Shown: positions 1 through 44,100 of the stretch, piece by piece | Layout of the letters: each line of letters begins with the position of its first letter | How positions within the stretch are numbered: position 1 is the stretch's first letter | Assembly: GCA_964016885.1 (NCBI GenBank) | Contig: OZ024741.1 | Coordinates: forward strand, 391,840,001 to 391,904,000 | Direction: 5' to 3' | Length of the DNA: 64,000 nucleotides | Origin: Eledone cirrhosa | Taxonomy: Eukaryota | Program-made: the position numbers and the translations under genes | Notes under the pieces: generated by a model | What the model was told of the DNA's origin: nothing | Databases searched by the model: none | What the model saw: the letters and a program-made list of their open reading frames with translations, nothing else

Positions 1-3000
1 TTAGTCTAATGGTGTGATGCCATGCCCTAAAACATTTAGTCTAATGGTGTAATGCCATGCCCTAAAACATTTAGTCTAATGGTGTAATGCCATGCTCTAA
101 AACATTTAGTCTAATGGTGTGATGCCATGCCCTAAAACATTTAGTCTAATGGTGTGATGCCATGCCCTAAAACATTTAGTCTAATGGTGTGATGCCATGC
201 CCTAAAACATTTAGTCTAATGGTGTAATGCCATGCCCTAAAACATTTAGTCTAATGGTGTGATGCCATGCCCTAAAACATTTAGTCTAATGGTGTAATGC
301 CATGCCCTAAAACATTTAGTCTAATGGTGTAATGCCATGCTCTAAAACATTTAGTCTAATGGTGTGATGCCATGCCCTAAAACATTTAGTCTAATGGTGT
401 AATGCCATGCCCTAAAACATTTAGTCTAATGGTGTGATGCCATGCCCTAAAACATTTAGTCTAATGGTGTGATGCCATGCCCTAAAACATTTAGTCTAAT
501 GGTGTAATGCCATGCCCTAAAACATTTAGTCTAATGGTGTGATGCCATGCCCTAAAACATTTAGTCTAATGGTGTAATGCCATGCCCTAAAACATTTAGT
601 CTAATGGTGTAATGCCATGCTCTAAAACATTTAGTCTAATGGTGTGATGCCATGCCCTAAAACATTTAGTCTAATGGTGTGATGCCATGCCCTAAAACAT
701 TTAGTCTAATGGTGTGATGCCATGCCCTAAAACATTTAGTCTAATGGTGTAATGCCATGCCCTAAAACATTTAGTCTAATGGTGTGATGCCATGCCCTAA
801 AACATTTAGTCTAATGGTGTGATGCCATGCCCTAAAACATTTAGTCTAATGGTGTAATGCCATGCCCTAAAACATTTAGTCTAATGGTGTGATGCCATGC
901 CCTAAAACATTTAGTCTAATGGTGTGATGCCATGCCCTAAAACATTTAGTCTAATGGCGTGATGCCATGCCCTAAAACATTTAGTCTAATGGTGTGATGC
1001 CATGCCCTAAAACATTTAGTCTAATGGTGTAATGCCATGCCCTAAAACATTTAGTCTAATGGCGTGATGCCATGCCCTAAAACATTTAGTCTAATGGTGT
1101 AATGCCATGCCCTAAAACATTTAGTCTAATGGTGTGATGCCATGCCCTAAAACATTTAGTCTAATGGCGTGATGCCATGCCCTAAAACATTTAGTCTAAT
1201 GGTGTAATGCCATGCCCTAAAACATTTAGTCTAATGGTGTGATGCCATGCCCTAAAACATTTAGTCTAATGGTGTAATGCCATGCCCTAAAACATTTAGT
1301 CTAATGGTGTGATGCCATGCCCTAAAACATTTAGTCTAATGGCGTGATGCCATGCCCTAAAACATTTAGTCTAATGGTGTAATGCCATGCCCTAAAACAT
1401 TTAGTCTAATGGTGTAATGCCATGCCCTAAAACATTTAGTCTAATGGTGTAATGCCATGCCCTAAAACATTTAGTCTAATGGTGTGATGCCATGCCCTAA
1501 AACATTTAGTCTAATGGTGTGATGCCATGCCCTAAAACATTTAGTCTAATGGTGTAATGCCATGCCCTAAAACATTTAGTCTAATGGTGTAATGCCATGC
1601 CCTAAAACATTTAGTCTAATGGTGTAATGCCATGCCCTAAAACATTTAGTCTAATGGTGTGATGCCATGCCCTAAAACATTTAGTCTAATGGTGTGATGC
1701 CATGCCCTAAAACATTTAGTCTAATGGTGTAATGCCATGCCCTAAAACATTTAGTCTAATGGTGTAATGCCATGCCCTAAAACATTTAGTCTAATGGTGT
1801 AATGCCATGCCCTAAAACATTTAGTCTAATGGTGTGATGCCATGCCCTAAAACATTTAGTCTAATGGTGTGATGCCATGCCCTAAAACATTTAGTCTAAT
1901 GGTGTAATGCCATGCCCTAAAACATTTAGTCTAATGGTGTAATGCCATGCCCTAAAACATTTAGTCTAATGGCGTGATGCCATGCCCTAAAACATTTAGT
2001 CTAATGGTGTGATGCCATGCCCTAAAACATTTAGTCTAATGGTGTAATGCCATGCCCTAAAACATTTAGTCTAATGGCGTGATGCCATGCCCTAAAACAT
2101 TTAGTCTAATGGTGTAATGCCATGCCCTAAAACATTTAGTCTAATGGTGTAATGCCATGCCCTAAAACATTTAGTCTAATGGTGTGATGCCATGCCCTAA
2201 AACATTTAGTCTAATGGTGTAATGCCATGCCCTAAAACATTTAGTCTAATGGCGTGATGCCATGCCCTAAAACATTTAGTCTAATGGTGTAATGCCATGC
2301 CCTAAAACATTTAGTCTAATGGTGTAATGCCATGCCCTAAAACATTTAGTCTAATGGTGTGATGCCATGCCCTAAAACATTTAGTCTAATGGTGTAATGC
2401 CATGCCCTAAAACATTTAGTCTAATGGTGTAATGCCATGCCCTAAAACATTTAGTCTAATGGCGTGATGCCATGCCCTAAAACATTTAGTCTAATGGCGT
2501 GATGCCATGCCCTAAAACATTTAGTCTAATGGTGTAATGCCATGCCCTAAAACATTTAGTCTAATGGTGTGATGCCATGCCCTAAAACATTTAGTCTAAT
2601 GGTGTGATGCCATGCCCTAAAACATTTAGTCTAATGGTGTGATGCCATGCCCTAAAACATTTAGTCTAATGGTGTGATGCCATGCCCTAAAACATTTAGT
2701 CTAATGGTGTGATGCCATGCCCTAAAACATTTAGTCTAATGGTGTGATGCCATGCCCTAAAACATTTAGTCTAATGGTGTGATGCCATGCCCTAAAACAT
2801 TTAGTCTAATGGTGTGATGCCATGCCCTAAAACATTTAGTCTAATGGCGTGATGCCATGCCCTAAAACATTTAGTCTAATGGTGTGATGCCATGCCCTAA
2901 AACATTTAGTCTAATGGCGTGATGCCATGCCCTAAAACATTTAGTCTAATGGTGTGATGCCATGCCCTAAAACATTTAGTTTAATGGCGTGATGCCATGC

Positions 3001-6000
3001 CCTAAAACATTTAGTCTAATGGTGTGATGCCATGCTCTAAAACATTTAGTCTAATGGTGTGATGCCATGCTCTAAAACATTTAGTCTAATGGTGTGATGC
3101 CATGCTCTAAAACATTTAGTCTAATGGTGTGATGCCATGCCCTAAAACATTTAGTTTAATGGCGTGATGCCATGCCCTAAAACATTTAGTCTAATGGTGT
3201 GATGCCATGCCCTAAAACATTTAGTTTAATGGCGTGATGCCATGCCCTAAAACATTTAGTCTAATGGTGTGATGCCATGCCCTAAAACATTTAGTCTAAT
3301 GGTGTGATGCCATGCTCTAAAACATTTAGTCTAATGGTGTGATGCCATGCCCTAAAACATTTAGTCTAATGGTGTGATGCCATGCTCTAAAACATTTAGT
3401 CTAATGGTGTGATGCCATGCCCTAAAACATTTAGTCTAATGGTGTGATGCCATGCCCTAAAACATTTAGTTTAATGGCGTGATGCCATGCCCTAAAACAT
3501 TTAGTCTAATGGTGTGATGCCATGCTCTAAAACATTTAGTCTAATGGTGTGATGCCATGCTCTAAAACATTTAGTCTAATGGTGTGATGCCATGCTCTAA
3601 AACATTTAGTCTAATGGTGTGATGCCATGCCCTAAAACATTTAGTTTAATGGCGTGATGCCATGCCCTAAAACATTTAGTCTAATGGTGTGATGCCATGC
3701 CCTAAAACATTTAGTTTAATGGCGTGATGCCATGCCCTAAAACATTTAGTCTAATGGTGTGATGCCATGCCCTAAAACATTTAGTCTAATGGTGTGATGC
3801 CATGCTCTAAAACATTTAGTCTAATGGTGTGATGCCATGCCCTAAAACATTTAGTCTAATGGTGTGATGCCATGCTCTAAAACATTTAGTCTAATGGTGT
3901 GATGCCATGCCCTAAAACATTTAGTCTAATGGTGTGATGCCATGCCCTAAAACATTTAGTCTAATGGTGTGATGCCATGCCCTAAAACATTTAGTTTAAT
4001 GGCGTGATGCCATGCCCTAAAACATTTAGTCTAATGGTGTGATGCCATGCCCTAAAACATTTAGTCTAATGGCGTGATGCCATGCCCTAAAACATTTAGT
4101 CTAATGGCGTGATGCCATGCTCTAAAACATTTAGTCTAATGGTGTGATGCCATGCCCTAAAACATTTAGTTTAATGGCGTGATGCCATGCCCTAAAACAT
4201 TTAGTTTAATGGCGTGATGCCATGCCCTAAAACATTTAGTCTAATGGTGTGATGCCATGCCCTAAAACATTTAGTCTAATGGTGTGATGCCATGCCCTAA
4301 AACATTTAGTCTAATGGTGTGATGCCATGCTCTAAAACATTTAGTCTAATGGTGTGATGCCATGCCCTAAAACATTTAGTCTAATGGTGTGATGCCATGC
4401 CCTAAAACATTTAGTTTAATGGCGTGATGCCATGCCCTAAAACATTTAGTTTAATGGCGTGATGCCATGCCCTAAAACATTTAGTCTAATGGTGTGATGC
4501 CATGCCCTAAAACATTTAGTTTAATGGCGTGATGCCATGCCCTAAAACATTTAGTCTAATGGTGTGATGCCATGCCCTAAAACATTTAGTCTAATGGTGT
4601 GATGCCATGCCCTAAAACATTTAGTCTAATGGTGTGATGCCATGCCCTAAAACATTTAGTCTAATGGTGTGATGCCATGCTCTAAAACATTTAGTCTAAT
4701 GGTGTGATGCCATGCCCTAAAACATTTAGTCTAATGGTGTGATGCCATGCCCTAAAACATTTAGTTTAATGGCGTGATGCCATGCCCTAAAACATTTAGT
4801 CTAATGGTGTGATGCCATGCCCTAAAACATTTAGTTTAATGGCGTGATGCCATGCCCTAAAACATTTAGTCTAATGGTGTGATGCCATGCCCTAAAACAT
4901 TTAGTTTAATGGCGTGATGCCATGCCCTAAAACATTTAGTCTAATGGTGTGATGCCATGCCCTAAAACATTTAGTCTAATGGTGTGATGCCATGCCCTAA
5001 AACATTTAGTCTAATGGTGTGATGCCATGCCCTAAAACATTTAGTCTAATGGTGTGATGCCATGCCCTAAAACATTTAGTCTAATGGTGTGATGCCATGC
5101 CCTAAAACATTTAGTCTAATGGTGTGATGCCATGCCCTAAAACATTTAGTTTAATGGCGTGATGCCATGCTCTAAAACATTTAGTCTAATGGTGTGATGC
5201 CATGCCCTAAAACATTTAGTCTAATGGTGTGATGCCATGCCCTAAAACATTTAGTCTAATGGTGTGATGCCATGCCCTAAAACATTTAGTCTAATGGTGT
5301 GATGCCATGCCCTAAAACATTTAGTCTAATGGTGTGATGCCATGCCCTAAAACATTTAGTCTAATGGTGTGATGCCATGCCCTAAAACATTTAGTCTAAT
5401 GGTGTGATGCCATGCCCTAAAACATTTAGTCTAATGGTGTGATGCCATGCCCTAAAACATTTAGTCTAATGGTGTGATGCCATGCCCTAAAACATTTAGT
5501 CTAATGGTGTGATGCCATGCCCTAAAACATTTAGTCTAATGGTGTGATGCCATGCCCTAAAACATTTAGTCTAATGGTGTGATGCCATGCCCTAAAACAT
5601 TTAGTCTAATGGTGTGATGCCATGCCCTAAAACATTTAGTTTAATGGCGTGATGCCATGCTCTAAAACATTTAGTCTAATGGTGTGATGCCATGCCCTAA
5701 AACATTTAGTCTAATGGTGTGATGCCATGCCCTAAAACATTTAGTCTAATGGTGTGATGCCATGCCCTAAAACATTTAGTCTAATGGTGTGATGCCATGC
5801 CCTAAAACATTTAGTCTAATGGTGTGATGCCATGCCCTAAAACATTTAGTCTAATGGTGTGATGCCATGCCCTAAAACATTTAGTCTAATGGTGTGATGC
5901 CATGCCCTAAAACATTTAGTCTAATGGTGTGATGCCATGCCCTAAAACATTTAGTCTAATGGTGTGATGCCATGCCCTAAAACATTTAGTCTAATGGTGT

Positions 6001-9000
6001 GATGCCATGCCCTAAAACATTTAGTCTAATGGTGTGATGCCATGCCCTAAAACATTTAGTTTAATGGCGTGATGCCATGCTCTAAAACATTTAGTCTAAT
6101 GGTGTGATGCCATGCCCTAAAACATTTAGTCTAATGGTGTGATGCCATGCCCTAAAACATTTAGTCTAATGGTGTGATGCCATGCCCTAAAACATTTAGT
6201 CTAATGGTGTGATGCCATGCCCTAAAACATTTAGTCTAATGGTGTGATGCCATGCCCTAAAACATTTAGTCTAATGGTGTGATGCCATGCCCTAAAACAT
6301 TTAGTCTAATGGTGTGATGCCATGCCCTAAAACATTTAGTCTAATGGTGTGATGCCATGCCCTAAAACATTTAGTCTAATGGTGTGATGCCATGCTCTAA
6401 AACATTTAGTCTAATGGTGTGATGCCATGCCCTAAAACATTTAGTCTAATGGTGTGATGCCATGCTCTAAAACATTTAGTCTAATGGCGTGATGCCATGC
6501 CCTAAAACATTTAGTCTAATGGTGTAATGCCATGCCCTAAAACATTTAGTCTAATGGTGTGATGCCATGCCCTAAAACATTTAGTCTAATGGTGTAATGC
6601 CATGCCCTAAAACATTTAGTCTAATGGTGTGATGCCATGCCCTAAAACATTTAGTCTAATGGCGTGATGCCATGCCCTAAAACATTTAGTCTAATGGTGT
6701 GATGCCATGCCCTAAAACATTTAGTCTAATGGTGTGATGCCATGCCCTAAAACATTTAGTCTAATGGCGTGATGCCATGCCCTAAAACATTTAGTCTAAT
6801 GGTGTGATGCCATGCCCTAAAACATTTAGTCTAATGGTGTGATGCCATGCCCTAAAACATTTAGTCTAATGGTGTGATGCCATGCCCTAAAACATTTAGT
6901 CTAATGGTGTGATGCCATGCCCTAAAACATTTAGTCTAATGGTGTAATGCCATGCCCTAAAACATTTAGTCTAATGGTGTAATGCCATGCCCTAAAACAT
7001 TTAGTCTAATGGTGTGATGCCATGCCCTAAAACATTTAGTCTAATGGTGTAATGCCATGCCCTAAAACATTTAGTCTAATGGCGTGATGCCATGCCCTAA
7101 AACATTTAGTCTAATGGTGTGATGCCATGCCCTAAAACATTTAGTCTAATGGTGTGATGCCATGCCCTAAAACATTTAGTCTAATGGTGTAATGCCATGC
7201 CCTAAAACATTTAGTCTAATGGTGTGATGCCATGCCCTAAAACATTTAGTCTAATGGTGTGATGCCATGCTCTAAAACATTTAGTTTAATGGCGTGATGC
7301 CATGCCCTAAAACATTTAGTCTAATGGTGTGATGCCATGCCCTAAAACATTTAGTCTAATGGTGTGATGCCATGCCCTAAAACATTTAGTCTAATGGCGT
7401 GATGCCATGCCCTAAAACATTTAGTTTAATGGCGTGATGCCATGCCCTAAAACATTTAGTCTAATGGTGTAATGCCATGCCCTAAAACATTTAGTCTAAT
7501 GGTGTGATGCCATGCCCTAAAACATTTAGTCTAATGGTGTGATGCCATGCCCTAAAACATTTAGTCTAATGGTGTGATGCCATGCCCTAAAACATTTAGT
7601 CTAATGGTGTAATGCCATGCCCTAAAACATTTAGTCTAATGGTGTGATGCCATGCCCTAAAACATTTAGTTTAATGGCGTGATGCCATGCCCTAAAACAT
7701 TTAGTCTAATGGTGTGATGCCATGCCCTAAAACATTTAGTCTAATGGTGTAATGCCATGCCCTAAAACATTTAGTCTAATGGTGTGATGCCATGCCCTAA
7801 AACATTTAGTTTAATGGCGTGATGCCATGCCCTAAAACATTTAGTCTAATGGTGTGATGCCATGCCCTAAAACATTTAGTCTAATGGTGTGATGCCATGC
7901 CCTAAAACATTTAGTCTAATGGTGTAATGCCATGCCCTAAAACATTTAGTCTAATGGTGTAATGCCATGCCCTAAAACATTTAGTCTAATGGTGTGATGC
8001 CATGCCCTAAAACATTTAGTCTAATGGTGTAATGCCATGCCCTAAAACATTTAGTCTAATGGTGTAATGCCATGCCCTAAAACATTTAGTCTAATGGTGT
8101 GATGCCATGCCCTAAAACATTTAGTCTAATGGTGTGATGCCATGCCCTAAAACATTTAGTCTAATGGTGTAATGCCATGCCCTAAAACATTTAGTCTAAT
8201 GGTGTGATGCCATGCCCTAAAACATTTAGTCTAATGGTGTGATGCCATGCCCTAAAACATTTAGTCTAATGGCGTGATGCCATGCCCTAAAACATTTAGT
8301 CTAATGGTGTGATGCCATGCCCTAAAACATTTAGTCTAATGGTGTGATGCCATGCCCTAAAACATTTAGTCTAATGGCGTGATGCCATGCCCTAAAACAT
8401 TTAGTCTAATGGTGTGATGCCATGCCCTAAAACATTTAGTCTAATGGTGTGATGCCATGCCCTAAAACATTTAGTCTAATGGTGTGATGCCATGCCCTAA
8501 AACATTTAGTCTAATGGTGTGATGCCATGCCCTAAAACATTTAGTCTAATGGTGTAATGCCATGCCCTAAAACATTTAGTCTAATGGTGTGATGCCATGC
8601 CCTAAAACATTTAGTCTAATGGTGTGATGCCATGCCCTAAAACATTTAGTCTAATGGTGTGATGCCATGCCCTAAAACATTTAGTCTAATGGTGTGATGC
8701 CATGCCCTAAAACATTTAGTCTAATGGTGTAATGCCATGCCCTAAAACATTTAGTCTAATGGTGTGATGCCATGCCCTAAAACATTTAGTCTAATGGTGT
8801 GATGCCATGCTCTAAAACATTTAGTCTAATGGTGTGATGCCATGCCCTAAAACATTTAGTCTAATGGCGTGATGCCATGCCCTAAAACATTTAGTCTAAT
8901 GGTGTGATGCCATGCCCTAAAACATTTAGTCTAATGGTGTGATGCCATGCCCTAAAACATTTAGTTTAATGGTGTGATGCCATGCCCTAAAACATTTAGT

Positions 9001-9020
9001 CTAATGGTGTGATGCCATGC
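1..9020. repeat. 35-bp tandem minisatellite array (~258 copies in window, open at left edge)
   Basis: Unit TTAGTCTAATGGTGTGATGCCATGCCCTAAAACAT is repeated without indels to 9020. Only 4 variable positions were seen (unit pos 6 C/T, 13 T/C, 16 G/A, 26 C/T). There are no spacers. Confidence 0.99.
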
Positions 9021-9080: not shown

Positions 9081-11888
9081 CATCATCATCATCACCGTTT
9101 TACATCCGTTCTTCCATGCTAGCATGGGTTAGACGGGTTGTCCTGTTGTGGGCAGTGTCTGGTCGGCTGACCATGCCTTGCTCATACAGGAACTGATTTG
9201 GCTTGATTTCTACAGCTGGAGGCCCTTCCTAACACCAACCTCATTTACAGTGAGTGCTGGGTGCTTTTTCCGTGGCGCCTACACGTCCACCTTACAGTGT
9301 GGGCTGGGTGCTTTTTTGCCGTGGCACCTACACGACCACCTTGCGGGGGGGGGGGGGGGGGGGGGGGGCATATTGTCTATATGCTTCAGCTTGTACCCAT
9401 GGGAGGTCGGGTACTCTGTATTACTGCGTGACGCCAGAGGTCACGGTCGTGTGTCATCGCCTTTGAGAGGTGTAATTGGGTAAGGTCGGCTTTTATCACC
9501 TCATCCCAAGTCTTCTTGGGTCTCCCCACTCCGCGGTTTCCATTGACTTCTAGTGCGCTGCACCTTTTTAAGCAACTGTCATCCTTCATACGCATCACAT
9601 GTCCATACCAACGCAACCGCCTATCCTGCACTCAGCATTTGATTCCTGTTATGCTCAGTCTCTCTCTCAATTCATTTATGCTTTGTCATTCGCGTATATT
9701 ACTATTACACATCCATCGGAGCATGCAGGCTTCATTTCTTTCTAATCTATGTAAGTCTTCCACCTTCAGCGCCCAGGTCTCACTACCATGTAACATTGCT
9801 GTTTGGATACACGCATCATACAGTCTGCCTTTCATTTTGAGGGAGAAGCTTTTTGCAGCTAGCAGTGGCAGTAGTTCCCTGAACATCTTCCATCCCGTTC
9901 TTACCCTAGTTATTGTACTTTCTGAACACTCATCTCCGCTGCTAATTCGGTCACCTAGGTAGCAGAAGCTGTCTACTGTTTCTACAGAGCCCTCCCAGAG
10001 ATTGGTGGTACTTGTTTCATGTGGCTGTTTGCTGCTTGCTGTCCCAGCACAGCTGCTGCATGTGAAGCCTACATTCTTAATTAAGCTTCCTGAGATCCCG
10101 CTACATCTCTTGTGTACCCATTGTTTGCATTTGGAGCAGAGAATGGAGTTCCTACCTACACCTTTCCTACATACTGAGCAAGGCCATTTCCCTGAGGGGA
10201 TCTGGGTTCTGTTTTCTCGTCTACTTACAAAGACCTTAGTCTTTGTCATGTTGACTTTGAGACCCATTCTTTCTAGTCCCTGCTTCCAAGTTTGGAATTT
10301 CTTCTCTAGTTCTACCATAGAATCAGCTATAAGTGCGAGGTCATCAGCATACAGGAGTTCCCATGGGCATCCGGTCTTAAACTCCTCCGTTATTGCCTGC
10401 AGGACTATGATGAACAGGAGAGGGCTAAGAACAGAGCCCTGGTGGACCCCAACCTGTACGCTAAATTCCTCGCTATACTCATTGCTAATCCTAACTTTGC
10501 TGACTGCTCCCCTATACATGGCTTGTACCACTTTCACAAGCCATTCATCTACTCCTAGTTTTCTAAGAGACCACCAGATTACAGCACGTGGAACTCTGTC
10601 AAAGGCTTTCTCAAGGTCGACAAATGCCAGGTAGAGTGGCTTACTTTTAGCTAGGTACTTTTCCTGTAACTGCCTCACAAGGAAGAGAGCATCAGTGGTG
10701 CCTCTTCCTGGTACAAACCCAAATTGCATCTCGTCTAGTTTCACCGGTCCCTAATCAACTGTGCTATAACTCTTTCTGTTACTTTCATGACCTGGTCCAT
10801 CAGCTTTATACCTCTATAGTTTCCTCTATCTAGTGCATCACCTTTACCTTTGTAGCAGTTGACAATGATGCTACTGCACCAATCTTTTGGTATGACACCT
10901 TCTAGTATTACCTGGTTAACAATACGTGTGGTTATAGTGTGACCTACAGACCCAGATGCCTTCAGCATCTCGGCAGCTATACCCGATGGACCGGTTGCCT
11001 TCCCCATCTTCATATCTTTGATTGCCTTACTTACTACGCTGCTGCTGACTTGTACTGCTGGGCCCCTTATAGGGTCTACTTGGGGTAGGGTCTCTTCTTC
11101 CCATGCATTCTCCTCATTTAGTAATCTATCATAATGACTCTTCCATGCATCTTTCTTCTCAGCACTTGTGAGGGCAAGCTCACCTTTATCATTCTGGATA
11201 TACTTCTCTCCAATGACATCACAACTCTCTCTGACACACTGCCTCGCAATCTTGAACACCTCCTATTTCTGGTCCTCACGTTGCAAAACATGCTTGAATT
11301 TTCTATCCTCTGCTTCCCTCCTAGCTAAGTATACTTGTCGCCTAGCTTCCCTCTTGGTCTCTATGTAGTGTACCCTGCTCCCCCCGTTCTACCATTCTTT
11401 CCATGCCTGTCTCTTGGCCTTAACTGCCTCATCTACCTTATTGTTCCACCACCAAGTCACTCTCCTCCTGCTTGAGGTCTTACTCCAGCCACAGACCTCA
11501 TCAGTCGCCTCTACTAAGTTATTTTGTAGGAACTCCCAGTTTTCTTCTACATTATATGTCTCTATCTGTTCTTCTTTACTGTCGTAGGCGTTGAGTAAAA
11601 TATCTTTAAATCTGTTACTGGTTGAGGGGACTTTCAGCTTCCAGATCTTTCTTCTCCAGGTTGGCCTCTGTTTCCGGGTTCGTCTAGTTCTGACCGTGAG
11701 GTCGCTGACAACTAAGCTATGTTGGGATGTACATTCCTCACTAGGGAAGGCTTTTGTGTTTACGACCGTCCATCTGTCACGTCCTCTGATGAGGATAAAA
11801 TCTAACTGACTAGAGTGCTCCCCTGATCTATAGGTGATCAGGTGGTTGTCGGGTTTTTTGAAGTTTGTGTTAGATATCGACATGTCAT
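9081..11888 (-). mobile_element. RTE-clade non-LTR retrotransposon, 5'-truncated, disrupted (copy A)
   Basis: ORF fragments give the APE C-terminus (ITYRSG..SQLDFIL..SQHSLV) and RT (NYRGIKL, QFGF, AFVDLEKAFDRV, GVHQGSVLSPLLF, YADDL). The C-terminus GRPKKTW and a (GAT)n tail are present. Stops occur at ~11389 and ~11263 and a frameshift at ~10742; the 5' end abuts (TA)n. Confidence 0.95.
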
Positions 11889-11905
11889 ATATATATATAT
11901 ATATA

Positions 11906-12065
11906 CGACAGGCTTCTACACATTTTCTGTTTAGTAAATATCACTCACAAGACATTGGTTAACTTGAGACTATAGTAGATAATACTAGATAATACTTGTT
12001 TAGGTGTCATGCAGTGGGACTGAACCTGAAACCATGTGGTTGGAAAGTGAACTCCATAACCAAAT
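11906..12065 (-). mobile_element. tRNA-derived SINE, degenerate
   Basis: The minus strand carries a B-box-like GGTTCAGTCCC and a body related to other SINE copies in the window. Confidence 0.55.
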
Positions 12066-12800: not shown

Positions 12801-13911
12801 GTCAGTACTTTTCAGTTACTTTTCTGGAACAACAACCAAAATCTAACAGAAATGAATATGTAAAATAATATTACAGGATTCACATGTGTTATTTTTAGTA
12901 GTATAAATCAAAATTTAATGAAAGGCTGATACACACACATATACACACGGAGCTATATAAGAAAATATGGCATATATATATACACACAAGAAAGATATGA
13001 AGAAGATAGTGGTAAGAAACTCTCAGGAGAGCTGGACAGTAGAAGGTCTTCAGAGGAGAAACCCCCCTTTCACAATTGATTTGGCCCTTAACTACTTACA
13101 ATCTACGGGGCCCATGCAGCATCCAGGTCAATTAAACCGTATGGAGATTTTTCATTGCCTCTGCTTTTAAACTTATATCTAGAAGCTTTCTTGAGTTTGG
13201 AAAAATAACATTGGTAGTCATGGTAACAGTGATATGTCATCGTTACCACCACCACCAACTACAAACGTGACTTACTCAGGGTTTCTTCCCTTAGTGTGTG
13301 TTAAAATACAAACACAATGCTGTCAAACTCTATAGAAGTCATTTTGTTCAGGGGCTAAATATTAAGTAGATATGACATATAGGCACATACACACATGGAA
13401 GAGATATAAAGAATGTATATCAAAATGTGCTGCAGCCAATAGAGGAGAGAGCATATTTTAATATTAATGTAGGCATGTGTTGTTGCTTTATGTTGATTGA
13501 ATGCGTGTTGCTCACTTATTTTAGTCGCATCTCCTTCCATGCAGGAGAGAGAGAAGGGACGTTTAGTACTGAAGCAAGCGTGTGTTTATTGCTTTAGTGT
13601 TGGCTAGATTGAACACATCACTCACTTTCTTCATCTTTGTTTCTTTCACTCTTTCTTCATGCATTGTTCAAATTCTCACCTCTTCATTCTCTCTCTTTTC
13701 CATCATATTCCATTGTAGCGAAGACGTAATTCATGATGACCAGAAATTGAGAAAGAGACAAACAAGCATATAAACAAATGAATATAGGTCCAAGTGTGAT
13801 AAAAACCTATTTTTGAGTCTAAAGAACTCACATGCCAAGTTTGAACATGATTGGTCCACTGGTTATTTTTGCATTGGAACCAAACTGACAAACAAGTTAT
13901 TTTATATATAT

Positions 13912-14809
13912 AAACAGCCACATGAAACAAGTACCACCAATCTCTGGGCGGGCTCTGTAGAAACAGTAGACAGCTTCTGCTACCTAGGTGACCGAATTAG
14001 CAGCGGAGGTGGGTGTTCAGAAAGTACAATAACTAGGGTAAAAACGGGATGGAAGAAGTTCAGAGAACTACTGCCACTGCTAGCTGCAAAAGGCTTTTCC
14101 CTCAAAATGAAAGGCAGACTGTATGATGCGTGTATACAAACAGCAATGTTATATGGCAGTGACACCTGGGCGCTGAAGGTGGAAGACTTACGTAGATTAG
14201 AAAGAAACAAAGCCTGCATGCTCCGATGGATGTGTAATAGTAATATACGCGAACGGCAAAGCATAAATGAATTGAGAGAGAGACTGAGCATAAGAGGAAT
14301 CAAATGCTGTATGCAGGAGAGGCGGTTGCGTTAGTATGGACATGTGATGCGTATGAAGGATGACAGCTGCATAAAAACGTGCAGAGCACTAGAAGTCATT
14401 GGAAACCGCGGAGTGGGGAGACCCAAGAAGACCTGGGATGAGGTGATAAAAGCCAACCTTACCCAATTACACCTCTCAAAGGCGATGACACACGACCGTG
14501 ACCTCTGGCGTCATGCAGTAATACAGAGTACCCAACCTCCCACTGCAAAGTGGTCGAGGAGGTGCCACAGCAAAAAAGCACCCAGCCCACACTGTAAAGT
14601 GGACGTGTAGGTGCCACGGAAAAAGCACCCAGCACTCACTGTAAATGAGGTTGGTGTTAGGAAGGGCAACCAGCTGTAGAAATCAAGCCAAAATCAGTTC
14701 CCGTATGAGCAAGACAAGGTCAGCCGACCGGACACTGCCCACAACAGGACAACCCGTCTAACCGATGCTAGCATGGAAGAACGGACGTAAAACGGTGATG
14801 ATGATGATG
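13912..14809 (+). mobile_element. RTE LINE 3' fragment (copy B), inverted relative to copy A
   Basis: Encodes KQPHETSTTNLW..FCYLGD..GRPKKTW, close to copy A, followed by the 3' UTR and (GAT)n tail. The 5' junction is in (TA)n. Confidence 0.95.
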
Positions 14810-15096
14810 TTTATTTCAATAATAATGATGATGATGATGATATATATATCTATATATATAAAGGGAAGATGGACATTGTTTAGTGTACCGAACTTGCCTG
14901 CTACACCGTTCATCCAATTTTCATGAAACCTCACACATATATGAAACTCAACGCGTAGAGTGGAATAGGCTACTTGAAATTTTCGATAATCGGGCCCTAT
15001 GACAGAATGTTTTTCGATTCCAATGAAATTTTATGTGAATTCGAACACAAGAACTCTTAGTTTACATCTGGCGCAATAAAAATAAATTTCATATGC

Positions 15097-15124
15097 CCAT
15101 ATAAGGACGTGCGTTATTGATTGG
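15097..15124 (+). promoter_or_regulatory. CArG box (CCATATAAGG) plus inverted CCAAT (ATTGG) inside the Helitron, putative
   Basis: Exact CC(A/T)6GG at 15097-15106 and ATTGG at 15120-15124. Motif match only; no functional evidence. Confidence 0.3.
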
Positions 15125-15907
15125 ACGGCCAGCTGCATGTCTTCCCAGCTGTCTCAGTAAACGACCGACCATTAAAGAGTTTCTTTTCATATTCCACCTT
15201 ATTCAAGTGGAAATACAGTATTATCCCTATCTGAAAAGGGAACTAAATTTAATGGTGTCTTTTGTGAACCTAAAAGCTGTGAGTAAATTTTCAAACAGTC
15301 TTAAATAATCATGCTTTTTGAAAAAAAAATTACTAAATAATACATTGAGCAGGTTGTGTTGTACACATACAATACAAGTAAAAAAATTTACGTTGTACCA
15401 ATGTTTTCCTTTTTTAAACAAAAGATTCTAAAAAATTACTTAATTTATAATAGTCTTTTGCACAGGAAGTGAGTAACTTTTCGGGTGTTTAAATGGAAGT
15501 TCACCAGGGTTTGTGTCTTCATTATTAGCCCACCTCTAATGGCATTTTTTGTTCTGCTTACGACTAAATGTAATGAGCGTATTTGCAATTAATTGCGCAC
15601 ACGTGCACACCTGCATGCAGATAGACACTGACAGCTAATAAAAAATCGATAACTTGCTTATTAAGATATCGGTCAAAAAGAGAGATTGAATGTACTTTAG
15701 AACATTTTTTGAATATATTGTTCTTTTTGGCATATGTCAGAAATATAGCTACTATACACTTTGGTTATTTTTTGTAACTAAAAAACGGTTCCTTTTGGGT
15801 GGATACTTAACGAGAAAAATCCTAGGGTTTTGGACAAGTTTGTTTCAGGCGCTGTATAGACGCCTATTTTGTCACACCTTGGTCATGAATTCGTATTCTT
15901 TTCCAAT

Positions 15908-16164
15908 AGATATTTTCCGCTCTATAAGGCTCACCAGGATATAAGGCATATCATTTAAAATCAGGTCCGCGCAACGGCGTGTAAGGCCAACCAGAAAATG
16001 CTATCTTCTTTACTTTTAGTCTAGATCTATTACTTCTGTTAGAGCCGTGATTGATTACCATTGTATTATTTATACATAAGGCTCACCGGAGTATAAAGCG
16101 CAGAGCTGTTTTTTGATTAAATTTAATTATTTTAAGTGCAATTTATAGACGGGAAAATTCGGTA
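15908..16164. mobile_element. pogo/Tigger-like MITE remnant nested in the Helitron
   Basis: Imperfect TIRs TATTTTCCGCTCTATAAG ... TTTATAGACGGGAAAATTCGGTA, and an internally repeated TAAGGCTCACC motif. Confidence 0.45.
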
Positions 16165-16286
16165 AGTTATTGTAATCATATTTCCAAACCTTCCCATTCA
16201 CCAGTAACCATGCTAACGAATCTGGTGTCATCTCTCTCTGTATTTAATCACCTCTCTCTAACCTAACAGCTTCGTTACACGTCGTT

Positions 16287-16845
16287 ATGCCCACACGGAA
16301 ACGTTCAAGACTTACCTCCAAAAAAGGTACAGCTATTGCTTTGAGACAACGAATTAGGCGTTCTCAGGTATGAGTTCATTCACAATTGATTAATCCTTTA
16401 TGCAATATTCTCCCTTAATGTTAGCAAGTACTGCGTTTATCCTAACTGTCACCACTTTTAAGCAACTACAACATTCTAATCGTAGTTATATTAAATTTAT
16501 TGTCTTACCTTGATTCCCTTTTGTTCATGTTAGACTTTTCTCATTTACTATTGACACTGCCATTGGCTTAGCTAACCAGTAGAATTAATTAATTTTCTCT
16601 AGGAAACACCTGCTGAGCGCAAATTTCGACTCGCTGATAGACGTCTTTCCCGGCTGGTTGAGTCCCCAACATCACGTACGACAAGGCTTGCTGATGTTCG
16701 CCTTCGTCGCCAACAAGCGCTGACGGAGGAATCACCAACATCCCGTCAGACGAGGCTTGAGGCTGTGGCAAAGGGCAATAACCCTAGATACAATTTTGAT
16801 CAACTTTTTTTCACCTATAGCAAATTTACCGGGACAGGTTTTTAG
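16287..16845 (+). CDS. spliced 107-aa STPR-repeat protein (Helitron N-terminus-derived); exons 16287-16367, 16603-16845
   Basis: MPTRKRSRLTSKKGTAIALRQRIRRSQ|gtatga...gctaac...ttttctctag|ETPAERKFRLADRRLSRLV-ESPTSRTTRLADVRLRRQQALTE-ESPTSRQTRLEAVAKG...GTGF*. Phase-0 GT-AG intron, no internal stops, AATAAA at 16890. Confidence 0.6.
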
Positions 16846-17633
16846 CTACTCAAATCTACTTCAGAGATCACGCATTGATGTAAAATATCAATAAAACTGA
16901 AGCGGGGCTCAACTTTGCGCAAAAAAACAAGGCAAAGTTACACATGGGAAAACTTTTTACAGGAACGTCCTATATTCTTGAAAACTGTCACAAAAGACTC
17001 GCCATTATGCCGCGGTTAAGATAAAGGGCCTTTTAATTCTTCTTCTGCACATGTGAGCGCAAAAATTGTAAAAAAAAAAAAACCTGAAAGTAATCGACAT
17101 TTTCACCCTGCTTTAAATTAACTGAACATTCAATATCAAGCGATTTTGACTTCCGTCGGTCGTGCAGAGAACAATTTCAACGATACACTGTGTAACTACA
17201 ATTAATAAATTACACACCTGTGTCTACTAACCTATTTTTTCCATTGAAGTTCGAAGTTTTGAACCTGTGATGCGCGGGAAGTAACTTTCACACATTCTAA
17301 CAGACCAAAGGTCGACTTACACCCGGGCAACGCCGGGTACTTTTGCTAGTACATATATATATATATATATATAAATGCAGACGTAAAAGCGATGATGATA
17401 TATGTATCTATCTCTCTATCTTTCTCTCTCTCTCTCTCTCTCTATAATACATATATATATAGAGAGAGAGAGATATACACTGTAAATGTGGTTGGCGTTA
17501 GCTGTAAAAACAAACCCTAAATCAGTTCTATATGAGCAAGACATGGCCATTGGACCTGGTTTGTCTCACAACGGGACAACTCGTCTAACTCATGCTAGCG
17601 TGGACATTAAACGGTGATGATGATATATATATA

Positions 17634-18167: not shown

Positions 18168-18272
18168 CTAGATAATTCACAGCAAACTGCATCTCAAATT
18201 TTTCAGTAGATAATGATTTGGGACACATCATCACACCAGCATTATTGACAAGGATGTGCAACTGAGATTCAC
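18168..18272 (-). CDS. RDH-like SDR coding exon 4
   Basis: ttttgcag|(C)[34 protein letters not shown](G)|gtaaaa; 105 bp. Confidence 0.93.
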
Positions 18273-23369: not shown

Positions 23370-26300
23370 CACGTGTTTGCATGCTTGTGTGTATGTTTAT
23401 GTATGCATTGGTCACTTTAATATTTACCCAATGTTTAATGATGTTAGAGCTTAATTGCTATAAATTATCATTTTGTCTTGTCTCTTACTCCATGGACAAT
23501 GCTTTGGCTTGTGTCAGACAGTGCCCCAGGGTGGACCATTGGTAGGGGGTTAAAATTGCCAAAGTCCATTTTAATGGCAGAAGGCCCTGGTGTTCTATGT
23601 CTTTCGTTTGTATTTTTATTCTCAAAAAATAATTTTTTAAGGTTTCACCTTTAAAAAATTGTCTTTTGTTTTGCCTTGTTTTTGTTTGTTGTCTTGTCAT
23701 TTCTTTGTTAATTTTCCTAAGATTATTATTACTAATCTGTGACGTACTTGCTTTCTCTTCTCCTCCCAATAATCTTAATTTAACATGATATCTTACTTTC
23801 TTCTTCTTGCCTTTTTCCTTTTTCTTTCTTTTCTTTTGTTTGTCCCCAAAACTTTCATGCTATAAAAATCACAATAGCTTCTCCCTGATGTCACATAAAA
23901 TTCTATGTGTACATGTTATAGCTTAATAAGTTATCATTTTGTCTTGCCTCTTACTCCATGGACAGTGCTTTGGCTTGTGTCAGATGCTGTGACCCCAAAT
24001 GAACCAGCAATACCATTGGTGGGGGTCGAAACTGCCAAAATCCATCTCAACGTGAAGACCCTGGAGCTCTGTCTTTTCAAAAAATAATTTTTTAAGGTTT
24101 CCCCTTCAAAAAATGTGGTGCAGTAAATAAATATATACATATACACCAGGTCCGAACACATCCCTCAAACTCTCCCCATCTATCACCATGAGAGCAAATG
24201 GGGGCCCATGCCTTGGCTGCCCTGACAGACAGAATAGAGAAGGTGTTTCCCCGGAGGATGGTGAAGGAGACGCGCTAGAAGAGCCATTCCAGCTCGCGAG
24301 GCTCACACCTGCGGCTTGTCAACTCTGTGCCAATGGTGGTCAGTAGGGAGGTGGTCCTAGGGCCAAGGACACCATTAATTGGTTTTCGTTTTGCCTTGTT
24401 TTCATTTGATGTTTTGTTTTCTCATTGTTAAGTTTCCTAAGTTTATATATATATAGATTTATATATATACATATTTATATACATATATATATATATATCA
24501 TTTTACATCTGCTTTTCCCTGCTTTATGTAAATAAATTGCACCTCTCAAAGGTATTGACAGAGAACCAAGATCTCTGGCATTATGCAGTTTACAGAAAAC
24601 TAGACTTCCCAAAGGCACAGGCGGAGACCGAAGCATATATATAGTATGCACCACCCTACCCCACCCACACATCACCCATGAGGACAAGTGGAAGTATACA
24701 TCCAGTGAAGCCTCCAGACCACACTGTAAAGTGGTCATGATGGCAACACAACAAAAAACATCCAGCCCACACTGTAAAGTGGTCGCGATGGCGACACTAT
24801 AAAGTGGTCGTGTAAGTGTCACAGCAAAAAATACCCAGTCCACACTGTAAAGTGGCCATGTAGGCGTCATAACAAAAAGCACCCAGTACTCACTGTAAAT
24901 GAGGTTGGCACTAGGAAGGGCATCCAGCTGTAGAACCAAGCCAAAATTGGTTGTGTGTGAGCAAAACATGGTCACCTGACCTGGCATTGCTCACAATAGG
25001 ATAATTCATCTAACTCATGCCAGCGTGAAAACATGGACATTAAATGATGATGATGATGATGATATAGTCCTGGTGCCACAATAAAATGCATCCAGTACAT
25101 ACAAGGTGGCAGTGCTGGTACCATAAAGTTCCCCCAGTACACCTTGTAAAGCAGCTGGTGTTATGAAGGGCATCCAGTCATAGAAACCAGGCCAAATATG
25201 TAACGTGAACAAGATGAGGTTTCTCCAATCTCTCTAATCTCAGGCTATGACAATCCATCCAACCAATGCCAACATGGATGGTTGTACATAAAATTATATA
25301 TGTATATATATATACACTAGGGGCTGCTGAAAAATTCCTGGCTTTAAGGGTATCGCAAAAGGGTAAAGCTGTCAACTTTACAGGGGAGGTAGGACAACTA
25401 TTTAGGAGATATGCAAAAAATCATGATCGTATACAATATATCCTTCTCTTTATTGCAGATTTAATGCTTGATGGCAGCTCCTAAAGTGGATTTTGGTAAA
25501 ACTGAAGCATGAAAGGTCATGAAGTTCCTCTTCTTGCATGGTGAGATGAAGGAAATCTTGAAGGATGGCTGCCCATATTACTCCACAGTGAAAATCAGGG
25601 TGCCAAGGATTCGGACTGGTCATTTTGAGGTCACAGATGAACCTCAGTCAAGATGGCCAACTTCCGTGACCACGGAAGACAAAGCCAACACTGTGCATGT
25701 CATGACTCTTGAGGATTTCTGCTGGATATCAGCTAAAGTCTTTCCAGTGAAAGAATTGGCCATATCATCCACAATATTCTGAACATGAGAAAGCTTTCCA
25801 CAAAATGGATGCCAAAATGCCTGAACGCAGATCAGAAGTGCATCAGAGTGATAACATCAAATGTGATTTGGGACCAGTTTGAAGCGGGAGAGGCTGATTT
25901 TATGGCTCATTTACTCCACATGGACGAAACTTGGCTTCATCATTATGATCCATTGACCAAGCAGCAATCAATGGAGTGGCGCCACAGCAGTTCACCATGC
26001 TCCAAGAAGTTTCGGATCCAGAAGTCAGCTGGAAAGATTCTGGTTTCAATGTTCTGGGACAAAAATGGAGTACTCCTCATAAAATAGCTGCCAAAGGGTC
26101 AGTTGCACCATCAATGCAGAATACTACATGTCTCTGTTAAATGAACTGTGTGAAGCTTGAAGCAGAAATGTTGTGGAAAGCTAAACCGTGGTGTCCTGTT
26201 TTTGCAGGACAATGCACCAGCAAACACAGCACATGAAACTATGGAAAATATGCAACTTTGGCTTTGAATTGGTAAATCACCCACTTTACACTCCTGACTG

Positions 26301-41100: not shown

Positions 41101-44100
41101 AGAATAAATTTGAGCAACTCTGAATCAATAGATGAAATATGAATCTGCGAGCTACTAAGCACCCATGTGAAACGCCAATCCAGAGACCCTTCCCTACGAG
41201 TGTCGACAAATGCCCAAAACTCCGAGTTGGTACCATCAATGTAGGCTCAATGAAAGGAAGAGCAGGAGAAATCGTAGAAATGCTAGAGCGAAAGGAAATT
41301 GATGTATGCTGTGTGCAAGAGACTAGATGGAGAGGAGAGTCTGCTAGAGTCCTTGTAGGAAAAAGTTGGTGCTACAAATTTTTCTGGGTGGGAAATGACG
41401 ATGGGATGGGTGGTGTAGGTATACTACTAGCTGACAAGTGGGTAGATAAAGTAATCTCAGTGTACAGGGTAAATGCAAGAATCATTAAACTCAGACTAGT
41501 CCTGAATAAAACAATTACCACAATAATATCAGCTTACGCACCCCAATCGGGGCTGCCAGACGAACTTAAGGATAGGTTTTACGAGTCCCTAATGCACACT
41601 ACTGCTCTAACAGACGACAATGACTTCCTAATCATCGCAGGAGATTTTAACGGACACGTAGGTAAACACTGCGACGGCTTCAATAGAGTACATGGAGGCC
41701 ATGGGGTTGGCACAAGAAATGAGGAAGGATTCAGACTTCTAGAATTCTGCGACGCCAATGACATGTCGATATGTAACACAAACTTTAAAAAACCCGACAA
41801 CCACCTGATCACCTATAGATCAGGGGAGCACTCTAGTCAGATAGATTTTATCCTCATCAGAGGATGTGACAGATGGATGGTCGTAAACACAAAAGCCTTC
41901 CCTAGTGAGGAATGTACATCCCAACATAGCTTAGTTGTCAGCGACCTCACAGTCAGAACTAGACGAACCTGGAAACAGAGGCCAACCTGGAGAAGAAAGA
42001 TCTGGAAGCTGAAAGACCCCTCAACCAGTAACAGATTTAAAGATATTTTACTCAACGCCTATGACAGTAAAGAAGAACAAATACAGACATTCAATGTAGA
42101 AGAGAACTGGGAGTTCCTAAAAAATAACTTACTGGAGGCGACGGATGAGGTCTGTGGCTGGAGTAAGACCTCAAGCAGGAAGAGAGTGACTTGGTGGTGG
42201 AACAATAAGGTAGATGATGCAGTTAAGGCCAAGAGACAGGCATGGAAAGAATGGAAGAACGAGGGGAGCAGGGTACATTACATAGAGACCAAGAGGGAAG
42301 CTAGGCGACAAGTATACTTAGCTAGGAGGGAAGCAGAGGATAGAAAATTCAAGCATGTTTTGCAACGTGAGGACCAGAAATAGGAGGTGTTCAAGATTGC
42401 GAGGCAGTGTGTCAGAGAGAGTTGTGATGTCATTGGAGAGAAGTATATCCAGAATGATAAAGGTGAGCTTGCCCTCACAAGTGCTGAGAAGAAAGATGCA
42501 TGGAAGAGTCATTATGATAGATTACTAAATGAGGAGAATGCATGGGAAGAAGAGACCCTACCCCAAGTAGACTCTATAGAGGGGCCAGCAGTACAAGTCA
42601 GCAGCAACGTAGTACGTAAGGCAATCAAAGATATGAGGATGGGGAAGGTAACCGGTCCATCGGGTATAGCTGCCGAGATACTGAAGGCATCTGGGTCTGT
42701 AGGTCACACTATAACCACACGTATTGTTAACCAGGTAATACTAGAAGGTGTCATACCACAAGATTGGTGCAGTAGCATCATTGTCAACTGCTACAAAGGT
42801 AAAGGTGATGCACTAGATAGAGGTATAAAGCTGATGGACCAGGTCATGAAAGTAACAGAAAGAGTTATAGCACAGTTGATTAGGGATTGGGTGAAACTAG
42901 ATGGGATGCAATTTGGGTTTGTACCAGGAAGAGGCACCACTGATGCCCTCTTCCTTGTGAGGCAGTTACAGGAAAAGTACCTAGCTAAAAGTAAGCCACT
43001 CTACTTGGCATTTGTCGACCTTGAGAAAGCCTTTGACAGAGTTCCACGTGCTGTAATCTAGTGGGCTCTTAGAAAACTAGGAGTAGATGAATGGCTTGTG
43101 AAAGAGGTACAAGCCATGTATAGGGGAGCAGTCAGCAAAGTTAGGATTAGCAATGAGTATAGCGAGGAATTTAGCGTACAGGTTGGGGTCCACCAGGGCT
43201 CTGTTCTTAGCCCCCTCCTGTTCATCATAGTCCTGAAGGCAATAACGGAGGAGTTTAAGACTGGATGCCCATGGGAACTCCTGTATGCTGATGACCTCGC
43301 ACTTATAGCTGAATCTATGGTAGAACTAGAGAAGAAATTCCAAACTTGGAAGCAGAGACTAGAAAGAAAGGGTCTCAAAGTCAACATGACAAAGACTAAG
43401 GTCCTTGTAAGTAGACGAGAAAACAGAACCCAGATCCCCTTAGGGAAATGGCCTTGCTCAGTATGAAGGAAAGGTGTAGGTAGGAACTCCATTCTCTGCC
43501 CCAAATGCAAACAATGGGTACTCAAGAGATGTAGCGGGATCTCAGGAAGCTTAATTAAGAATGTAGGCTTCACATGCAGCAAACAGCCACAGGAAACAAG
43601 TACCACCAATCTCTGGGAGGGCTCTGTAGAAACAGTAGACAGCTTCTGCTACCTAGGTGACCGAATTAGCAGCTGAGGTGGGTGTTCAGAAAGTACAATA
43701 ACTAGGGTAAGAACAGGATGGAAGAAGTTTAGGGAACTACTACCACTGCTAGCTGCAAAAGGCTTCTCCCTCAGAATGAAAGGCAGACTGTATGATGCGT
43801 GTATCCGAACAGCAATGTTACATGGTAGTGAGACCTGGGCGCTGAAGGTGGAAGACTTACGTAGATTAGAAAGAAACGAAGATTGCATGCTCCGATGGAT
43901 GTGTAACAGTAATATACGTGAACGACAAAGCATAAATGAATTGAGAGAGAGACTGAGCATAAGAGGAATCAAATGCTGCGTGCAGGAGAGGCGGTTGCAT
44001 TGGTAAGGGCATGTGATGCGTATGAAGGATGACAGCTGCATAAAAAGGTGCAGAGCACTAGAAGTCAATGGAAACCGTGGAGTGGGGAGACCCAAGAAGA

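What the first reader, a model, noticed from the sequence alone, without database searches (positions are those of the whole stretch)
14849..17349. Non-autonomous Helitron carrying an intact, spliced STPR-repeat mini-gene
Seen: canonical Helitron ends enclose a CpG-rich two-exon ORF that the ORF track misses. It has a basic NLS-like start (MPTRKRSR), a clean GT-AG intron with a GCTAAC branch site, and E[TS]P..R..RL repeats at 19 and 23 aa spacing. A stop at 16843 is followed by AATAAA at 16890. A second plausible intron lies in the 5' UTR (GTAAGT 16162 to CTAACAG 16269). Established: 23-aa STPR repeats form a DNA-binding domain (Bombyx FMBP-1), and similar repeats occur at the N-termini of some animal Helitron Rep/Hel proteins. 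Inference: a deletion derivative that lost Rep/helicase but kept an expressible DNA-binding module, antisense within RDH intron 4. It could act as a repressor or helper of Helitron mobility, or be a domestication candidate.
Basis: partly seen in the sequence, partly recalled or inferred. Interest (0 to 1): 0.75.

Follow-up and report, generated by a model that had tools for sequence, protein, structure and literature searches.

The report
Deleted Helitron keeps transposase stump
This is one of an estimated 280 copies of a rolling-circle transposon that lost two thirds of its length in a single deletion; the 'mini-gene' is the leftover front of its own transposase gene and decays like unselected DNA in sister copies, so it is likely a passenger rather than a working regulator.

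Summary
The sequence features are as described: Helitron ends, a two-exon 107-codon frame, splice signals, stop and AATAAA. The element is a young family (about 280 copies estimated, about 1% from their majority). I found its parent in the same genome: an 8.2-kb Helitron, 93-97% identical at both ends, where the same exon 1 and intron run on into four STPR-type repeats, a cysteine-rich segment, Rep and PIF1 helicase. One 5.7-kb deletion at a 3-base microhomology made the short form. It cuts the third repeat after 10 residues, and the last 28 residues and the stop come from the parent's non-coding tail. In 62 copies sampled without regard to the gene, 31 are open. dN/dS is 1.3, and stops and frameshifts occur at neutral rates; an older sister family also decays neutrally (0.95). 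The same stretch shows purifying selection between lineages (0.30). So 'deletion derivative with a spliced STPR stump' holds, while 'functional or domesticated mini-gene' is unsupported. Expression could not be tested. A collective, KP-like repressor role is not excluded (about 10%). The scan has noted similar STPR-stump Helitrons in other genomes.

The parts
14849..17349 (+). Non-autonomous canonical Helitron (2,501 bp), internal-deletion derivative of an 8.2-kb STPR-Rep-helicase Helitron
   Evidence: ends and flanks of copies; parent alignment
14849..14989 (+). Left terminal sequence, starts TC after A; about 140 bp shared with gene-less sister families
14849..16759 (+). Left arm inherited from the parent (element bases 1-1911): upstream region, predicted promoter, both introns and the transposase start
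   Evidence: 93-97% identity to 11 of 15 fetched long loci (one of them matches only from base 937)
16162..16269 (+). Predicted 5'-UTR intron (GTAAGT...CTAACAG); splicing not shown
16287..16367 (+). Coding exon 1 (27 codons, basic N-terminus) of the parent transposase gene
   Evidence: in frame with Rep in parents after the same splice
16368..16602 (+). 235-nt GT-AG intron of the transposase gene; splicing inferred from frame continuity in the parents, not from reads
16603..16759 (+). STPR-type stump: a 19-aa repeat, a 23-aa repeat and the first 10 residues of a third; the parent has four repeats
   Evidence: Pfam STPRs 17.2 bits, below cut-off; parent segment 35.4 bits, above cut-off
16757..16759 (+). 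TTG microhomology at the deletion junction (about 5.7 kb of parent removed)
   Evidence: same junction in 61 of 62 copies
16760..16845 (+). Read-through tail (residues 80-107 and stop) from the parent's non-coding 3' region, 1.4 kb behind the parent's stop codon
16890..16895 (+). AATAAA; also the first AATAAA behind the parent's stop codon in L291, so possibly the parent's poly(A) signal (untested)
17321..17349 (+). Right terminal hairpin (6-bp stem, 6-nt loop) and CTAG end
18168..18272 (-). Nearest upstream exon of the host RDH-like short-chain dehydrogenase gene; the element lies antisense in the following intron
   Evidence: adh_short E 0.003, below cut-off as a single exon; next exon in L296

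Best explanation
The element is a shortened copy of an 8.2-kb Helitron of the same genome, likely made by one 5.7-kb deletion and then likely copied in trans by its parent's Rep/helicase, and its two-exon frame is the cut-off front of that transposase gene, likely carried as a passenger. Shown: shared arms with the parent, the junction, one junction in nearly all copies, the frame's origin, neutral decay of copies. Inferred: the deletion used the TTG microhomology; mobilisation needed only the two ends; the frame is open here because the family is young (about 1% divergence), not because it is kept. The stop codon and tail are a by-product of the junction. Some transcription and splicing from the inherited promoter and introns is plausible but untested.
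For: Parent: 11 of 15 fetched loci carry the left arm at 93-97% followed by Rep/helicase, 10 of them also the right arm at 93-98%; five with both ends measure 7.8-8.3 kb. Spliced at the same GT-AG sites, parent frames run up to 713 aa before the first stop and hit Helitron_like_N, STPRs and PIF1. Junction: TTG on both sides, same in 61 of 62 copies. Decay: 31 open, 16 frameshifted, 5 with stops, 3 acceptor lost, 2 start lost, 5 partial of 62; 160 nonsynonymous, 43 synonymous, 10 stop changes against 151/53/9 expected, dN/dS 1.31, p 0.13; frameshifting indels 17 in 324 coding bases against 14 in 343 intron bases; 31 of 57 complete copies open against 64% expected under neutrality, p 0.17. Older sister family: dN/dS 0.95, 12 stops against 9. 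Positive control: between parent and sister lineages 13 of 24 changed codons are synonymous, dN/dS 0.30, p 0.003. Gene-less relatives with the same ends also multiplied: 18 of the 85 loci.
Against: The gene-bearing form is the commonest of the relatives (62 of 85 loci with the shared 3' motif). A second, independent deletion family also kept the promoter region, intron and STPR exon and also ends in a stop. The deletion places the parent's first downstream AATAAA 45 nt behind the new stop, so an mRNA could be well formed. About half the copies are still open. Neutral decay of single copies cannot exclude a shared product acting in trans.
Confidence: 0.85

Rival explanations
1. KP-like repressor: the many open copies together make a small nuclear STPR protein that occupies Helitron ends or the transposase promoter and damps transposition.
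For: Same logic as P-element KP derivatives (DNA-binding part kept, translation interrupted; PMC12393704 passages). Promoter region, introns, basic N-terminus and an AATAAA are inherited. An estimated 140 copies are open. None of the six parents translated reads through.
Against: No purifying selection in copies. The three lineage-level changes in the STPR part (one fixed against the parent, two segregating) all alter the protein. Only two complete repeats are left, one of them 19 aa; the shortest FMBP-1 form reported to bind in the passages read has three (PMC4856987). The cysteine-rich segment is lost.
Confidence: 0.1
2. The left arm is favoured as a cis element (promoter activity or transposase binding helps mobilisation), and the frame rides along with it.
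For: Two independent deletion families keep the left arm through the STPR exon; the gene-bearing form dominates the sample.
Against: Relatives that keep only about 140-350 bp of the left end also spread (18 of 85 loci). The end sequences of HelibatN1 and N3 were enough for mobilisation by Helraiser (PMC4778049 passage). This reading is compatible with the best explanation and gives the protein no role.
Confidence: 0.15
3. Host domestication of this copy as a new DNA-binding gene, or as an antisense regulator of the RDH-like gene.
For: The frame is open here and lies in a gene's intron.
Against: Half of all copies are open. This copy differs from the majority at three coding sites, two of them amino-acid changes (E34K, S35F) in the first repeat. 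The family is about 1% diverged, too young for such a signal.
Confidence: 0.02

Closest known systems
Non-autonomous canonical Helitrons (HLE1) and their autonomous parents, as defined in HELIANO (PMC11417382; passages seen)
   Same: TC start, hairpin plus CTRR end, A-T insertion, both ends shared with an autonomous partner, no RepHel; the paper lists STPRs among domains stably carried by autonomous elements.
   Different: Keeps 1.9 kb of the left arm with two predicted introns and a closed short frame; the passages seen do not discuss such stumps.
Helraiser/Helibat1 with HelibatN1-N3 (PMC4778049; passages seen)
   Same: Autonomous element with N-terminal basic signal, zinc-finger-like motif and RepHel core; non-autonomous families mobilised in trans.
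   Different: HelibatN3 carries a captured host promoter and splice donor; here the promoter region and splice sites are the transposon's own, and the acceptor lies inside the element.
STPR domain of Bombyx mori FMBP-1 (Pfam PF21107; PDB 5D23; PMC4856987, abstract and passages seen)
   Same: E-[ST]-P-x-x-R-x-x-R-L repeat starts at 23-residue spacing; the parent's four-repeat segment passes the Pfam cut-off (35.4 bits) and its best PDB match is FMBP-1 (E 0.14, weak).
   Different: The stump has one 19-aa repeat, one 23-aa repeat and 10 residues of a third, and scores below cut-off (15.6-17.2 bits); FMBP-1 is a host gene with four repeats.
KP element and other internally deleted P-element repressors (PMC12393704, passages; PMC5443660, passages)
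   Same: Internal deletion keeps the DNA-binding start and interrupts the transposase; high copy number relative to the parent.
   Different: Different transposon class; for KP repression is reported in those papers, here neither expression, binding nor repression is shown.

Membership tests
Non-autonomous HLE1 Helitron | 5' TC and 3' CTRR ends | tested here: met
Non-autonomous HLE1 Helitron | Short hairpin about 11 nt before the 3' end | tested here: met
   6-bp stem at 17321-17338, -6.2 kcal/mol with DNA parameters
Non-autonomous HLE1 Helitron | Insertion between A and T without target duplication, at many dispersed sites | tested here: met
   A|TC and CTAG|T with unrelated flanks; most sites are (AT)n runs and no empty site was compared, so lack of duplication is read from the flanks only
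Non-autonomous HLE1 Helitron | No Rep/helicase, ends shared with an autonomous partner | tested here: met
Non-autonomous HLE1 Helitron | Mobilised in trans by the partner's transposase | not testable with these tools
   inferred from shared ends and like divergence of parents (0.7-1.9%) and short copies (mean 1.2%)
STPR domain (PF21107) | Score above the curated cut-off of 27 bits | tested here: not met
   exon 2 alone 17.2 bits, sister copy 15.6-15.9; the joined protein was not scanned; the parent segment passes with 35.4
STPR domain (PF21107) | Three to four tandem 23-residue repeats | tested here: not met
   19 + 23 + 10 residues in the stump
STPR domain (PF21107) | Binds the DNA major groove | not testable with these tools
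   needs a binding assay
KP-type transposon-encoded repressor | Transposase translation interrupted by an internal deletion | tested here: met
KP-type transposon-encoded repressor | DNA-binding domain kept whole | tested here: not met
   third repeat cut, fourth repeat and cysteine-rich segment lost; which part binds the ends is not known
KP-type transposon-encoded repressor | Expressed and represses transposition | not testable with these tools
   needs raw RNA reads and a transposition assay
Domesticated transposon gene | Purifying selection on the frame | tested here: not met
   dN/dS 1.31 among copies; control 0.30 between lineages
Domesticated transposon gene | Fixed at one orthologous locus across species | not testable with these tools
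   no related genomes are held for this window

The most novel reading that the evidence does not exclude
A Helitron counterpart of the KP element: about 140 open copies use the parent's promoter, introns and poly(A) signal to make a small STPR protein that blocks Helitron ends and shut down the parent family. The searches turned up no such Helitron repressor.
Probability: 0.1. Interest if true: 0.65.

Novelty: new member of a known kind. Interest (0 to 1): 0.2.

Why it matters
As found, it is a well-resolved but ordinary case: parent, breakpoint, two independent stump families and their neutral decay are all visible in one genome. It shows how an intact-looking spliced 'mini-gene' with promoter, stop and AATAAA can arise in one step without selection, which is a caution for gene annotation. 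It also gives an example of an intron-containing STPR-Rep-helicase gene. If the stump protein did repress transposition, it would give Helitrons a self-made brake like KP for P elements and a handle on what the transposase's STPR repeats bind.

Tried and rejected
Expression: no RNA holder listed (five runs, none on record as RNA, all kept as contigs). Laying four runs per call gave no joint at either predicted intron. Run X1, of unknown kind, has one 1,421-nt contig across both introns unspliced. This is no evidence for or against splicing. The same calls were useful as DNA evidence: loose ends at 16757 and 16759 led to the parent. Protein collection search with the 52-aa stump of a sister copy among longer proteins: 133 candidates, none at E <= 0.1 (weak search). 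The 30 best Helitron_like_N loci, the 30 best STPR loci and two further long Rep loci had no DNA similarity to the element; the parent was not among them. First idea that the right arm is a swapped module captured from other families: rejected, it is the parent's own 3' region. C1:368.81 Mb as a long parent copy: rejected, two short copies 2.5 kb apart. Ribozyme behind the parent's stop (lead from earlier notes): Rfam scan of two parents and the element gave only below-threshold hits, mostly to AT repeats. The bacterial promoter scan does not apply to this animal sequence. Internalin A rows (E about 0.6) are chance. No structure or complex prediction was run. Literature searches; no supplements were read, so HELIANO's supplementary domain table was not seen.

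Full report
Observation. The element begins A|TC at 14849 and ends CTAG|T at 17349, with a 6-bp hairpin 11 nt before the end. Joining 16287-16367 to 16603-16845 at GT-AG sites gives the 107-aa frame, followed by AATAAA at 16890. Exon 2 alone matches Pfam STPRs at E 0.007, 17.2 bits, below the cut-off of 27. CpG observed/expected is 1.02 in the frame, 0.95 in the rest of the element and 0.35 in the rest of the window, so CpG richness marks the whole young element. Three dehydrogenase-like exons lie upstream on the minus strand (near 26.8, 22.5 and 18.2 kb) and the next lies 5.1 kb left of the window: the element is intronic and antisense. 'RDH-like' rests on weak adh_short matches and recalled motifs. 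The genome has 3.0 Gb; earlier notes call it octopus-like, which I did not check.

A young family. A DNA search of the genome gave 657 candidates; the 40 scored were 99-100% identical over 751 bases. A protein search with exon 2 gave 521 candidates; the 150 scored were 92-100% identical. Of 29 other copies, 28 end at the same CTAG followed by T and 24 reach the same 5' end, mostly in (AT)n runs. An exact 24-base motif near the 3' end occurs 263 times. I examined 85 of the 91 matches listed on contigs C1 and C2; left out were the window itself, two fetched as larger loci (L181, L185) and three not fetched. Of the 85, 62 carry the gene region. With a recapture rate of 21 of 31 on C1 this gives about 280 copies (rough). 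Copies differ from their majority by 1.2% on average.

The parent. DNA contigs showed loose ends where the repeat continues past 16759. A motif from them found 42 matches, most in an older sister family, 88-93% identical over the shared arm, whose exon 2 has more repeats and then a cysteine-rich segment. That segment is 44% identical over 132 residues to an unrelated Rep/helicase of the same genome (E 3e-29). Searching with it (150 scored of 2,220 candidates), I fetched 15 loci chosen for long frames or neighbouring Rep hits. Eleven carry the left arm at 93-97% (one only from base 937) followed by Rep/helicase, and 10 of these also show element bases 1909 onward at 93-98%. One is a long many-repeat form and three are short sister copies. 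Five with both ends measure 7.8-8.3 kb. Spliced at the same sites, six parents gave frames of 50-713 aa before the first stop; none of these six reads through. The L282 frames hit Helitron_like_N (E 2e-58), PIF1 (E 4e-57) and, for the four-repeat segment, STPRs at 35.4 bits. In L282 the long frame opens exactly at the acceptor after a stop, so the intron is needed to reach the start codon. That is the best evidence that the intron is real; it is inferred, not seen in reads.

The deletion. Both parent breakpoints carry TTG, and 5,630-5,693 bases are missing relative to the six least rearranged parents. The same junction is present in 61 of 62 copies, so it arose once. It cuts the third repeat after 10 residues. 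Residues 80-107 and the stop are read from sequence 1.4 kb behind the parent's stop codon; the AATAAA is the first one behind that stop in L291. The promoter region, both introns and possibly the poly(A) signal are thus inherited, and no step of gene-building has to be assumed.

Selection. Of the 62 copies, 31 are open, 16 frameshifted, 5 have stops, 3 lost the acceptor, 2 the start, and 5 are partial. Changes seen in up to three copies: 160 nonsynonymous, 43 synonymous, 10 stops, against 151, 53 and 9 expected from the element's own non-coding rates; dN/dS 1.31 (p 0.13), 1.52 in the STPR part (p 0.05). Two variants shared by more copies were set aside from that count; both are nonsynonymous. 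Frameshifting indels: 17 in 324 coding bases, 14 in 343 intron bases, in 56 complete copies. Open frames are 31 of 57 complete copies against 64% expected (p 0.17). The sister family (25 loci, 3' part of its frame) gives dN/dS 0.95 with 12 stops against 9. As a control, the majorities of parents and sister family differ in 24 of 228 codons, 13 synonymously: dN/dS 0.30, p 0.003 (repeat register is uncertain for some codons). The stretch was constrained as part of a transposase lineage and is not constrained in the short copies. The window's copy has two rare amino-acid changes, E34K and S35F.

Mechanism. Shown: anatomy, parent, junction, neutral decay. Inferred: a parent copy lost 5.7 kb at a microhomology, kept both ends and was amplified in trans. 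In the Helraiser system the end sequences of non-autonomous families were enough for mobilisation (PMC4778049, passages), and here 18 of 85 loci are gene-less relatives with the same ends. The frame is open because little time has passed.

What speaks against this, and what stays open. The gene-bearing form is the commonest relative, a second deletion family kept the same front end, and the transcript could be well formed. A product shared in trans would not need each copy to be constrained, so neutral decay does not exclude a KP-like repressor (PMC12393704, passages). Against that reading, only two whole repeats remain, and the shortest FMBP-1 form reported to bind has three (PMC4856987, passages). 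Expression could not be tested.

Comparison and verdict. It meets the testable features of a non-autonomous HLE1 Helitron; STPRs are already listed as a domain of autonomous elements (PMC11417382, passages). The stump fails the STPR cut-off and the test for a domesticated gene. Earlier notes of this scan describe like elements in other genomes; they are not used as evidence. New member of a known kind; interest 0.2; KP-like repressor 10%.

Noticed in passing
L241-L270, L292, L294, L295: An older, independent deletion family of the same Helitron that keeps a longer STPR array (repeat number varies between copies) and the cysteine-rich segment, joined to the last 91 bases of the element; it also decays neutrally. 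L288 looks like its long, many-repeat parent type.
   Followed up: yes
L219, L205, L198, L222 and related loci: Gene-less sister family sharing the first 150 bases and the right arm (about 86%), with a central array of roughly 170-base imperfect repeats; 16 of the 85 sampled loci.
   Followed up: partly
L291 (plus strand) about 9100-9130; L222 1984-2010: A second hairpin-plus-CTAG, like an older Helitron 3' end, lies about 700 bases inside the parent's present end; it suggests past end-bypass. It is removed in the short element.
   Followed up: no
L028; L185: Head-to-tail joins: a relative's CTAG end sits directly in front of this element's start.
   Followed up: no
L091-L118 (C16, C19, C20, C27): Near-identical Helitron Rep matches recur at roughly 100-130 kb spacing on several small contigs, as if inside a large tandem or segmental repeat.
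   Followed up: no
L182:5176-9900 (C2:315.526 Mb): An unrelated Helitron with an intronless 1,718-codon open frame holding about 12 STPR repeats, Rep and PIF1.
   Followed up: partly
window 1-9020, continuing about 1.3 kb left of the window: A 35-bp satellite array of about 258 copies at 97% identity lies inside the same intron of the RDH-like gene.
   Followed up: no
window 9352-11940 (-), 13900-14700 (+), 41136-44260 (+): Near-identical (94-97%) copies of a non-LTR retrotransposon with endonuclease- and reverse-transcriptase-like frames; the Helitron sits just behind the 3' tail of one of them. Labels are from reading the translations, not from a scan.
   Followed up: no
window 25618-26087 (+): Broken mariner-like transposase fragment (label from reading the translation).
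   Followed up: no
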